Notes under the pieces: generated by a model
What the model saw: the letters and a program-made list of their open reading frames with translations, nothing else
What the model was told of the DNA's origin: nothing
Database searches by the model: none
Program-made: the position numbers and the translations under genes
In this document: positions 15,810 to 17,165 of the stretch, piece by piece
How the letters are laid out: each line of letters starts with the position of its first letter
How positions within the stretch are numbered: position 1 is the stretch's first letter
DNA from: an uncultured candidatus Porisulfidus sp.
GTDB lineage: Bacteria > Pseudomonadota > Gammaproteobacteria > Poriferisulfidales > Poriferisulfidaceae
Direction: 5' to 3'
DNA length: 64,000 nt
Assembly (NCBI GenBank): GCA_965214545.1
Contig: OZ243950.1
Coordinates: 708,813-772,812 of the forward strand

Positions 15810-17051
15810 CTACCAGCTCCAGGTAATCCCCGCAGAACCACCGGTCTGTGAATAGTCCAAACCTTGGGAGATGCCAAAATCCAGCACCACGTTCGGCTCT
15901 TCCAGCAGGCGGAAGGCGCCGCCTGCCGCAATGGCGCTCTTGGACCGGAAATGACCCAGCCGCAACGAGATAGCCCTATCCTTGTCCTGCGGGAGGCGCA
16001 TGCCACCCAGAGCGATCGCGATTGCCGTGCCCTCATGCGACTCCGAGCGCAACCTGCTGAAGGAATGCTGTAAGGAGTCGAGACTGGAACCGTATCCATC
16101 TAGGCCCTTGAGCATTTCATCGATACGCTGCTGCTGGTTCGCGAGCCATCCCTCCGGCAGGCTGGCGGCGGGACCCGGCGGACCGGGCGGACCTGCAGGC
16201 CCCACCACAGTGCTTGCCTCTCCGGGCGGACCCGTGGGGCCGGGGGGCCCTGGAGGCCCAGTGGTTGCCGTTCCGGGCGGACCTGCGGGCCCTGGAGGGC
16301 CCTGAGTGCCCGCACCCTGAGGCCCTGGTGGTCCTGGAGGGCCCTGAGTTCCCGCACCTTGAGGCCCTGGTGGGCCCGGAGGCCCCTGAGTGCCCGCACC
16401 CTGGGATCCCCGCGGTCCCGGAGGGCCTGGAGGCCCCGGAGTGCCGGCACCTTGGGGTCCCGGTGGTCCCGGTGGTCCCGCCTGAGTACCTGCCGGTCCG
16501 GGTGGACCTGCAGGGCCTACGGGTCCGGGGCTACCATCGCTACCATCGCCACCTTGTGGACCCGGAGGACCCGGAGGCCCCGGAGTGCCGGCACCTTGGG
16601 GTCCCGGTGGTCCCGGTGGTCCTGCCTGAGTACTTGCCGTTCCGGGCGGACCTGCAGGGCCTACGGGTCCGGGGCTACCATCGCTACCATCGCTACCTTG
16701 TGGACCCGGAGGACCTGTTGGACCCGGAGGACCCGGCGGGCCACCCGAAGGACCTGGTGGACCCGGAGGACCTGTTGGACCCGGAGGACCCGGAATCTGC
16801 GCCTGTACATCTTCGGGATAGATGGCACTGAGCGCCGTTATCCCGGCTGTGCCTGTCAGCGCCAGTGAGAGGGCACTGGCAACCGCCGTCGGCGTATACT
16901 GGTTATGGAGATTCTGCCTAGGCGTAGAAGGCCCATGGGGCCTGGCATCCAGCTTCGGTGCCACACTGCCGCCCCCGACCGCTTTCGGGATTTCTAGCAG
17001 GGGGGGGGGGGGGGGGGGGTGCTCTGCCTTTTCGACATCAATCTCAACCAC
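15810..17051 (-). CDS. collagen-like trimeric autotransporter adhesin: signal-peptide-like N-terminus, ~70 Gly-X-Y triplets (mostly GPPGP), coiled-coil neck and C-terminal YadA-type membrane anchor. True start uncertain (ORF track uses GTG at 17051)
   Basis: Long run of [13 protein letters not shown]... triplets. C-terminus ([42 protein letters not shown]...[27 protein letters not shown]) matches the YadA anchor pattern (GIAGAAALAAL...AIGTG...AFKAGAAIN...NIGVNYEF). A hydrophobic [21 protein letters not shown] segment precedes the repeats. Confidence 0.75.
17000..17019. repeat. homopolymeric G20 tract (C20 on the coding strand, read as Pro6) at the 5' end of the collagen-like adhesin ORF
   Basis: Counted directly. 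With 20 G the upstream ATG at 17081..17083 is out of frame and its frame stops at TAG right after the tract. 21 G would fuse that ATG in frame to the collagen ORF. Confidence 0.9.
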
Positions 17052-17165
17052 AATTCGGGCTGCAATGCGCGGGATTGTAACATATGATTTGTCGGGTTTT
17101 CAAGGACGAGTTGCCCTTGGAGATTTGTCCTCGCGAAACCCTCCCAGCCGCCCAAAGCGGGGCCG

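What the first reader, a model, noticed from the sequence alone, without database searches (positions are those of the whole stretch)
17000..17090. G20 homopolymer puts the collagen adhesin under an apparent slipped-strand ON/OFF switch
A perfect run of 20 G (C20 on the coding strand) sits at the very 5' end of the adhesin ORF, encoding Pro6. With 20 G the only nearby ATG (17081..17083, minus strand) is in the +1 frame and terminates at TAG immediately after the tract. With 21 G that ATG reads straight into the collagen ORF. This is the arrangement used for phase-variable surface proteins in Neisseria, Haemophilus and Bordetella.
Basis: seen in the sequence. Interest (0 to 1): 0.7.

Follow-up and report, generated by a model that had tools for sequence, protein, structure and literature searches.

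The report
Hypermutable poly-C switch in collagen-like autotransporter
A run of 20 C sits between the likely start codon and the export signal of a collagen-like surface fibre gene, and related sponge-associated bacteria carry 14 C and 12 C at the same spot, so it is most likely a classic slippage ON/OFF switch seen here in an unusual host and gene family.

Summary
G20 lies at 17000..17019 (C20 on the coding minus strand), with about 3e-5 such runs expected by chance in the window. The gene (15810..~17038, minus) is not a collagen-binding adhesin. It encodes a small trimeric autotransporter: a signal-like N-terminus, about 210 residues of Gly-X-Y collagen, a coiled neck and a YadA-type anchor. 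Two 2OG-Fe(II) oxygenase genes and secB follow it.

Its ATG (17083) overlaps a predicted extended -10 element. ATG 17038, in the same frame, is the likelier start (MSKRQST-Pro(n)).

The main new evidence is comparative. Two relatives with about 65-75% identical neighbouring proteins carry C12 and C14 at the equivalent position. Each tract follows a Met-Lys/Arg-rich start peptide in a shifted frame. Neither relative has a usable canonical start downstream. Tract-less paralogues encode ordinary Pro-rich sequence there.

This supports a translational phase-variation switch of the Bordetella bapC/tcfA type. Length variation within a population could not be tested. All three assemblies read "off", and consensus tract lengths may be wrong by one base.

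The parts
17000..17019 (-). C20 homopolymer (G20 on + strand). It encodes Pro6-7 in the N-terminal extension of the pre-protein and is the proposed slipped-strand switch.
   Evidence: Orthologous tracts are C14 in L001 and C12 in L018.
17074..17103 (-). Sigma-70-like promoter: -35 TTGAAA (17103..17098), an 18-nt spacer, and an extended -10 TGtTACAAT (17082..17074). The inferred transcription start is near 17067.
   Evidence: 10 of 12 matches with the TG present, against 0.1 expected in shuffles. A similar TGtTATCAT lies upstream in L018. This is a consensus match only.
17036..17038 (-). Most likely start codon (ATG), giving MSKRQST-Pro(n). It is out of frame with the collagen ORF at C20 and in frame at C18, C21 or C24.
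   Evidence: Similar Met-Lys/Arg-rich peptides precede the tract in L018-A (MRKTSKQS...) and L001 (MIQKKQKR...), and the tract-less paralogue starts MKKKPTR.
17081..17083 (-). It has the same frame as ATG 17038 and overlaps the TG of the predicted extended -10 element, so it is probably upstream of the transcript start unless there is read-through from the ankyrin gene.
17049..17051 (-). GTG in frame with the collagen ORF at C20, giving the acidic peptide [11 protein letters not shown]-Pro6. It has no Shine-Dalgarno-like sequence. It is a possible weak start in the assembled state.
16994..16996 (-). TAG that ends the ATG-initiated frame three bases after the tract at C20.
16962..16964 (-). In-frame GTG downstream of the tract, giving [11 protein letters not shown].... 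It is the only canonical alternative start that would keep the signal-like region. It underlies the rival reading in which the tract lies in the 5' UTR.
   Evidence: No equivalent start exists in L001 or L018-A.
16800..16898 (-). Signal-peptide-like segment [33 protein letters not shown], followed by Q. The conserved [V/A]-Q-A motif directly precedes the collagen repeats and is inferred to be a signal-peptidase site.
   Evidence: conserved across the family. The cleavage site is inferred, not predicted by a tool.
16167..16790 (-). Collagen triple-helix region with uninterrupted Gly-X-Y repeats of about 208 residues.
   Evidence: Pfam PF01391, E=2e-16.
15810..16166 (-). Coiled neck (LPEGWL...[25 protein letters not shown]), YadA-type beta-barrel anchor ending ITWSW, and the stop codon.
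   Evidence: Pfam PF03895 at 22.8 bits against a cut-off of 22.7. A family profile matches the YadA anchor structure 2LME at E=5.5e-5. 187 homologues were found.
13692..15511 (-). Downstream genes on the same strand: two 2OG-Fe(II) oxygenases (14981..15511 and 14263..14850) and SecB (13692..14204). This arrangement is conserved next to family members elsewhere.
   Evidence: Pfam PF13640 twice, PF02556. Synteny.

Best explanation
The C20 tract is a hypermutable contingency tract inside the coding sequence of a collagen-stalk trimeric autotransporter. Transcription probably starts from the extended -10 promoter at 17103..17074. Translation probably starts at ATG 17038 and runs MSKRQST, then the tract read as poly-Pro, then a basic linker, a hydrophobic signal segment and the VQA|Q motif. 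Collagen repeats, a neck and a YadA-type anchor follow. Slipped-strand mispairing during replication changes the tract length. Lengths of 18, 21 or 24 join the start codon to the 400-codon ORF (ON). Other lengths end at TAG 16996 or in a 40-codon dead end (OFF). The tract lies in an N-terminal extension that is probably removed with the signal peptide, so in-frame length changes should not alter the mature fibre. Shown here: the tract, the frames, the domain content, and the conserved tract position with variable length across three genomes. Inferred: the start codon, the promoter, signal cleavage, actual switching and its rate, and the biological purpose. That purpose would be bet-hedging in the display of a host-matrix-like surface fibre in a sponge-associated bacterium.
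For: (1) Tract and frame arithmetic. (2) The run is far beyond chance, with 3e-5 expected. (3) Orthologues carry a poly-C tract at the same position in the gene. L018-A is 65% identical in the anchor and syntenic downstream and has C12. L001 is 58% identical and has C14 followed by A7. Neighbouring proteins are only about 60-75% identical, so the tract has persisted across substantial divergence while its length differs. (4) In all three genes a Met-Lys/Arg-rich peptide is encoded just upstream of the tract in a shifted frame: MSKRQST, MRKTSKQSAHEPLPL and MIQKKQKRTTGQSPVFN. The tract-less paralogue L018-B starts MKKKPTRAGPTAPS in one continuous frame. The alignment places the poly-Pro over Pro-rich coding sequence of the tract-less paralogues. 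(5) No viable start exists downstream of the tract in L018-A, where the first in-frame GTG lies inside the hydrophobic segment. In L001 the only GTG would remove the basic n-region. (6) The ORFs downstream of the tracts stay open for 243 to 458 codons in all three genomes, which argues against pseudogenes. (7) The product is a surface protein, the class most often under this control. Bordetella autotransporter genes bapC and tcfA have C/G tracts of 9-17 in their coding regions that vary within single cultures, and the reference bapC allele is out of frame (PMC1891110).
Against: No read-level or multi-strain data were available, so length heterogeneity is not shown. All three assemblies are in a non-productive frame relative to the proposed ATG. 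That has about a 30% chance if phases were random. It is also what one would see if the proposed starts were wrong, or if long-homopolymer consensus lengths were miscalled. Shine-Dalgarno matches before the proposed ATGs are weak. In the window itself there is an in-frame GTG upstream (17051) and one downstream (16964), so expression without any slippage cannot be excluded. Between L001 and L018-A the substitution pattern from the tract to the hydrophobic segment shows no third-position bias, so coding there rests on charge pattern, frame openness and paralogue alignment. No database protein has an in-frame ON N-terminus.
Confidence: 0.68

Rival explanations
1. The tract lies in the 5' untranslated leader. 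Translation starts downstream at GTG 16964 ([11 protein letters not shown]...). Tract length has no frame effect, or only modulates mRNA level or translation, as the poly-G tract upstream of the Moraxella uspA1 start codon is reported to do (recalled from memory, not checked here).
For: In-frame GTG 16964 is preceded by a G-rich stretch (GGGGGCGG) and would keep a basic n-region and the hydrophobic segment. All three assemblies are out of frame with the upstream ATGs, which this reading would make irrelevant.
Against: L018-A and L001 have no equivalent start. In L018-A the first in-frame start after the tract lies inside the hydrophobic core. In L001 it removes the KRKR n-region. Tract-less paralogues translate the equivalent region from an upstream ATG. 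The Met-Lys/Arg-rich peptides upstream of all three tracts would then be a coincidence.
Confidence: 0.12
2. The tract works mainly at the RNA or ribosome level. RNA polymerase slippage on a run longer than the RNA:DNA hybrid, or ribosomal frameshifting on CCC codons, would give a constant low fraction of in-frame product whatever the DNA length. The result would be set-point attenuation rather than a heritable ON/OFF switch.
For: All three genomes carry an 'off' length yet keep long intact ORFs. Transcriptional slippage at homopolymers rescues frameshifted genes in several bacteria and endosymbionts (PMC5009743, PMC4256274).
Against: Genome-wide data show that transcription insertions prevail in A and T runs (PMC5574713), and G/C tracts are less documented. 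A DNA tract of 12-20 bases will also slip during replication, as 9-17-base tracts do in Bordetella. This mechanism would therefore add to DNA-level switching rather than replace it.
Confidence: 0.12
3. The gene is decaying. The tract would be a mutational accident in a reduced symbiont genome and the gene a pseudogene.
For: The assembled state is out of frame in three genomes. Database gene calls for the family are all short fragments.
Against: ORFs of 243-458 codons remain open downstream of the tract in all three lineages. The anchors are conserved, and the collagen repeats are uninterrupted. The fragmentary calls also affect tract-less, clearly intact members such as L003, L017 and L018-B, so they reflect gene-finder failure on GC-rich collagen repeats. 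An accident would not recur at the same position in orthologues this diverged.
Confidence: 0.05
4. The tract is a sequencing or assembly artefact, such as a poly-G artefact.
For: Long G runs are a known artefact of two-colour chemistry at read ends (general knowledge).
Against: The tract is internal to the window, with unique sequence on both sides. It recurs at the homologous position in two independent assemblies from other samples. Only the exact length, within about one base, is in doubt.
Confidence: 0.02

Closest known systems
Bordetella pertussis autotransporter genes bapC and tcfA (coding-region C/G homopolymer phase variation; PMC1891110)
   Same: Both are high-GC proteobacteria. In both, the product is an outer-membrane autotransporter-type surface protein. 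In both, the tract is a C/G homopolymer inside the ORF, near the 5' end in bapC. In both, the reference allele is out of frame and a one-base change restores it. Tract lengths differ between related species, 7-17 in Bordetella and 12-20 here.
   Different: In Bordetella, switching was shown within single cultures; here it is only inferred. The present tract lies before the signal peptide rather than in the passenger. The protein is a trimeric (type Vc) autotransporter with a collagen stalk, not a classical type Va one. The organism is an uncultured host-associated bacterium, not a pathogen.
Neisseria and Haemophilus contingency loci (poly-G/C tracts in opc, pgtA, lgt and hpuA, and 115 predicted meningococcal genes; PMC5084427, PMC2193922)
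   Same: Both use homopolymer slippage to shift the reading frame of surface or surface-modifying genes and so produce stochastic ON/OFF subpopulations.
   Different: Those tracts are usually 7-14 bases and lie in moderate-GC genomes with many such loci. Here only two long tracts are seen in 64 kb, and genome-wide abundance is unknown.
Phase-variable trimeric autotransporters (Moraxella UspA1/UspA2H homopolymers, Haemophilus Hia promoter poly-T, Neisseria NadA TAAA repeats). Recalled from memory; only general reviews were retrieved (PMC3960869).
   Same: The same protein class (YadA-anchor trimeric adhesins) is controlled by simple-sequence repeats.
   Different: Apart from UspA2H (coding-region poly-A), these examples act on transcription from the promoter or 5' leader. 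Here the tract is 55 nt downstream of the predicted -10 element and, by the comparative evidence, inside the coding sequence.
Bacterial collagen-like surface proteins (Streptococcus Scl1/Scl2, Legionella Lcl, Pasteuria CLPs; PMC8968730, PMC6460258, PMC13233619)
   Same: Gly-X-Y triple-helix stalk displayed on the cell surface. Repeat-number variation is common.
   Different: Anchoring is by a YadA-type beta-barrel rather than LPXTG or other means. The NCBIfam SclB score is 41 against a cut-off of 325. The gene sits beside 2OG-Fe(II) oxygenase genes, and in relatives beside a GT25/PLOD-like glycosyltransferase gene. This suggests hydroxylation and glycosylation like animal collagen, which is not a feature of Scl proteins.

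Membership tests
Simple-sequence-repeat contingency locus (translational phase variation) | Homopolymer much longer than composition predicts | tested here: met
   C20 against 3.2e-5 expected runs of at least 20 in 64 kb.
Simple-sequence-repeat contingency locus (translational phase variation) | The tract lies inside the coding sequence, so a change of one base switches between a full-length and a truncated product | tested here: met
   Frame simulation gives ON at C18/C21 from ATG 17038 and a TAG stop otherwise. That the tract is coding is inferred from paralogue alignment and from the lack of downstream starts in orthologues.
Simple-sequence-repeat contingency locus (translational phase variation) | Tract length is polymorphic among related genomes at the same site | tested here: met
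   C20 in the window, C12 in L018-A and C14 in L001 at the homologous position. The comparison is between species only; no same-species strains were available.
Simple-sequence-repeat contingency locus (translational phase variation) | Length heterogeneity within a clonal population, with reversible ON/OFF expression | not testable with these tools
   No reads, strains or expression data. Exact look-ups and metagenome scans found no further copies.
Trimeric autotransporter adhesin (type Vc secretion) | C-terminal YadA-like membrane anchor | tested here: met
   PF03895 at 22.8 bits against a cut-off of 22.7. The family profile matches YadA anchor 2LME at E=5.5e-5 over 94 positions. The terminal motif is ITWSW.
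Trimeric autotransporter adhesin (type Vc secretion) | Trimeric fibrous passenger joined to the anchor by a coiled neck | tested here: met
   Collagen triple-helix repeats, PF01391 at E=2e-16, followed by a heptad-like neck. Trimer formation itself was not modelled.
Trimeric autotransporter adhesin (type Vc secretion) | N-terminal Sec signal peptide | tested here: inconclusive
   A basic segment, a hydrophobic segment and a conserved V/A-Q-A motif are seen by eye and conserved in the family. No signal-peptide predictor was available.
Promoter-spacer homopolymer switch (Bordetella fim type) | Tract lies between the -35 and -10 elements, so its length sets the spacing | tested here: not met
   The predicted -35 and -10 lie at 17103..17074. 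The tract starts 55 nt downstream of the -10.
LPXTG-anchored collagen-like adhesins (Scl1/Scl2) | Whole-protein match to the SclA/SclB models and an LPXTG anchor | tested here: not met
   NCBIfam scores are 41 and 18 bits against cut-offs of 325 and 400, over the collagen repeats only. The C-terminus is a beta-barrel anchor.

The most novel reading that the evidence does not exclude
A conserved hypermutable switch lets uncultured sponge-associated proteobacteria turn on and off a surface fibre that mimics animal collagen. That fibre may be hydroxylated and glycosylated by the adjacent P4H-like and PLOD/GT25-like enzymes. The populations could then bet-hedge between embedding in the collagen-rich host matrix and escaping host recognition. 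This would be the first contingency locus described in a sponge symbiont. It would be maintained across genera, sometimes beside a tract-less paralogue that is always expressible.
Probability: 0.3. Interest if true: 0.75.

Novelty: new member of a known kind. Interest (0 to 1): 0.5.

Why it matters
Homopolymer phase variation of surface adhesins is textbook biology in mucosal pathogens. It has not been reported for sponge-associated symbionts: a full-text search for the combination returned nothing relevant. If switching is real, stochastic surface variation also shapes stable animal-microbe mutualisms. It would single out this collagen-like fibre as a molecule whose display carries a cost or risk in the host. 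There is also a practical point. The whole gene family is mis-annotated in public data as C-terminal fragments of 80-150 residues, so its tracts and its collagen-modification operon are invisible to annotation-based surveys.

Tried and rejected
(1) Exact-sequence look-ups of the database copy of the window's protein (P0001) and of the window's RapZ found no contig. No second assembly of the same organism could be compared.

(2) A protein-pattern scan of JGI metagenomes with the two-sequence alignment found no relatives. A degenerate DNA pattern for the conserved TAVTG[A/V]TAAT block gave 110 matches. None had a collagen context or an upstream tract.

(3) A profile of the N-terminal regions, including the in-frame poly-Pro versions, found nothing at E<=0.1 in 5.8 billion proteins. 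The composite query found only P0001. No 'ON' allele is on record.

(4) Rfam found no RNA family at either tract.

(5) A promoter-spacer mechanism was rejected because the tract lies downstream of the predicted -10 element.

(6) A codon-position test for coding between the tract and the hydrophobic segment (L001 against L018-A) was uninformative: 19 codons with differences of 7/10/5 by codon position.

(7) The other family loci with complete 5' ends (L003, L017, L018-B, L020/L021-B) have no tract. The tract is a feature of one subclade, not of the whole family.

(8) The window's organism was not identified directly. The habitat is inferred from relatives: the Aplysina aerophoba assemblies (PMC5649159) and a JGI contig named IrcVar142.

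Full report
**Observation.** The + strand carries a perfect G20 at 17000..17019, which is C20 on the coding minus strand. It is the longest homopolymer in a 65.4% GC window. Apart from a G14 at 53953..53966, no run exceeds 8 bases. From composition, about 3e-5 G or C runs of at least 20 are expected in 64 kb. In the long minus-strand ORF 15810..17051 the tract reads His-Pro6-Leu. The ATG at 17083..17081 is in the +1 frame, and that frame stops at TAG 16996..16994. Simulating tract lengths shows that C18, C21 and C24 join the ATG frame to the long ORF. A second ATG at 17038..17036 has the same frame and lies only 19 nt before the tract. A GTG at 17051 is in frame with the ORF at C20.

**What the gene is.** Pfam finds a collagen triple-helix repeat (E=2e-16) and, just at its cut-off, a YadA-like anchor. 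A profile of eight family members matches the solved YadA anchor 2LME at E=5.5e-5. The layout has five parts:
- an N-terminal extension;
- a hydrophobic signal-like segment ending in a conserved V/A-Q-A motif;
- about 208 residues of uninterrupted Gly-X-Y;
- a coiled neck;
- a beta-barrel anchor ending ITWSW.

The protein is therefore a collagen-LIKE trimeric autotransporter, not a collagen-binding adhesin. Downstream on the same strand lie two 2OG-Fe(II) oxygenase genes (PF13640) and secB. An ankyrin-repeat gene lies upstream.

**Family and context.** An exhaustive HMMER search with the C-terminal 132 residues found 187 relatives. A profile search found 24 close ones. Every one of the 24 is recorded as an 80-151-residue C-terminal fragment. 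Fetching their contigs shows open frames of 243 to more than 1,700 codons with the same layout. Gene finders therefore fail systematically on these GC-rich repeats. The neighbouring genes recur: two or three PF13640 oxygenases, often a GT25/GT_PLOD glycosyltransferase, and SecB. Sources include the Aplysina aerophoba sponge metagenome and one of its bins (MKWU, MPNF; PMC5649159) and a JGI contig named IrcVar142. The family is sponge-associated. The window's own habitat is inferred from this, not shown.

**Comparative evidence.** Two relatives carry a long poly-C at the equivalent position.

L001 (OZ244850.1, a Gammaproteobacteria MAG) is 58% identical in the anchor region. It has C14 followed by A7 at 9670..9690, just upstream of the conserved KRKRWYSPTAVTG hydrophobic segment.

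L018 (ERZ25072384, a 1.98-Mb contig) is syntenic with the window downstream: two oxygenases, SecB, and an AAA-ATPase/PD-(D/E)XK gene, at 60-75% protein identity. It holds two tandem paralogues. Copy A is 65% identical to the window's anchor and has C12 at 7026..7037. Copy B has no tract and a plain ATG start (MKKKPTRAGPTAPS...).

In all three tract-bearing genes a Met-Lys/Arg-rich peptide is encoded immediately upstream of the tract in a shifted frame: MSKRQST, MRKTSKQSAHEPLPL and MIQKKQKRTTGQSPVFN. Aligned with the tract-less paralogues, the poly-Pro falls over ordinary Pro-rich coding sequence between the initiating Met and the basic n-region.

Downstream starts do not rescue the two relatives. 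In L018-A the first in-frame canonical start after the tract lies inside the hydrophobic core. In L001 it removes the basic n-region. A contig of a further relative (L002) begins exactly where the tract would end, which fits an assembly break at a homopolymer but proves nothing. Other family members with complete 5' ends have no tract.

**Mechanism.** The best reading is a translational contingency switch. A sigma-70-like promoter with an extended -10 element (TTGAAA, 18 nt, TGtTACAAT; 17103..17074) is the only such site in 1.8 kb, against 0.1 expected. If the promoter is used, the transcript starts near 17067 and ATG 17038 is the start codon. Both ATGs share a frame, so the tract arithmetic does not change.

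Replication slippage would move the gene between ON (C18/21/24) and OFF. The tract lies in an N-terminal extension that is probably cleaved off at the conserved VQA|Q motif. In-frame length changes should therefore leave the mature fibre unchanged. Cleavage is inferred, not tested.

The arrangement matches Bordetella bapC and tcfA. Those are autotransporter genes with coding C/G tracts that vary within single cultures, and the reference bapC allele is out of frame (PMC1891110).

**Caveats.**
- No read-level or same-species data could be obtained, so switching itself is not shown.
- All three assemblies are in a non-productive frame relative to the proposed ATGs: the window needs +1, L018-A needs +1, and L001 needs -1.
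- That pattern is compatible with OFF-dominated populations, with an error of one base in the consensus of long homopolymers, or with RNA-level slippage supplying some in-frame product. Transcription insertions are, however, mainly documented for A/T runs (PMC5574713).
- In the window alone, GTG 17051 (in frame at C20, acidic peptide, no Shine-Dalgarno-like sequence) and GTG 16964 (downstream, keeps the signal segment) leave room for expression without slippage.
- Shine-Dalgarno matches are weak at every candidate start.
- The codon-position test between L001 and L018-A was uninformative.

**Novelty and verdict.** The mechanism is a known kind, and this is a new member of it. Four things are new:
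- the setting, an uncultured sponge-associated proteobacterium;
- the gene class, a collagen-stalk trimeric autotransporter next to collagen-modifying-type enzymes;
- conservation of the tract position across genomes whose neighbouring proteins are only 60-75% identical;
- coexistence in one genome with a tract-less paralogue.

A full-text search for phase variation at homopolymers in sponge symbionts returned nothing relevant. I rate confidence in a real coding-sequence contingency tract at about 0.68 and interest at 0.5.

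Noticed in passing
window 53953..53966: A second long homopolymer, G14 (C14 on the minus strand; about 0.02 expected by chance). It lies between a LuxR-type response regulator gene (54226..54915, minus) and a 689-residue lipoprotein-like ORF (ATG about 53692, minus; MRLSKYSALILLTLALSAC followed by Gly8, a long coiled coil, no Pfam hit). On the minus strand it ends a small ORF (53950..54141, ...APPPP*) and sits 30 nt before two tandem terminator-like hairpins (53923..53903 and 53881..53861). On the + strand it is 2 nt before an ATG at 53969. There is no Rfam hit. Its function is unresolved; it could be a second contingency tract.
   Followed up: partly
window 15810..17051; loci L002-L021: All 24 close database relatives of this protein are recorded as 80-151-residue C-terminal fragments, although the open frames are 243 to more than 1,700 codons. 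Gene finders call wrong-frame or opposite-strand ORFs over the GC-rich collagen repeats, for example L003 1199..2710 (minus) and L018 8871..9983. The family is effectively invisible in annotations.
   Followed up: yes
window 13692..15511 (minus); L003, L004, L015, L016, L017, L018: The collagen-like autotransporter gene is followed by two or three 2OG-Fe(II) oxygenase genes (PF13640, the family that includes prolyl 4-hydroxylases). In many relatives a GT25/GT_PLOD glycosyltransferase gene follows as well, then secB. This looks like a bacterial operon for animal-type collagen hydroxylation and glycosylation. The window has the two oxygenases and secB but no glycosyltransferase.
   Followed up: partly
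L018 7026..10243; L020 3..3327: Tandem paralogues of the collagen-like autotransporter occur in two relatives. In L018 only the first copy carries the poly-C tract and the second has an ordinary ATG start. The window has a single, tract-bearing copy.
   Followed up: partly
L002 1..60: A short-read scaffold of a relative begins exactly at the position where the poly-C tract ends in L001 (KLSPRKRSWYDPATVTG...). This fits an assembly break at a long homopolymer and hints at a fourth tract-bearing orthologue.
   Followed up: no
window 17166..18047 (minus): A 293-residue protein made almost entirely of ankyrin repeats (Pfam Ank_2, E=3e-48) is encoded directly upstream of the autotransporter gene. 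No terminator is predicted between the two. Ankyrin-repeat proteins are typical of host-associated bacteria.
   Followed up: no
window 16994..17083 (minus); L018 6980..7040; L001 9612..9690: In each tract-bearing gene, two of the three reading frames upstream of the tract contain a start codon that could read through at some tract length: window ATG and GTG, L018-A two ATGs, L001 GTG and ATG. The switch could therefore have three states with alternative N-termini rather than a simple ON/OFF. Both relatives are assembled in the one frame with no start.
   Followed up: partly
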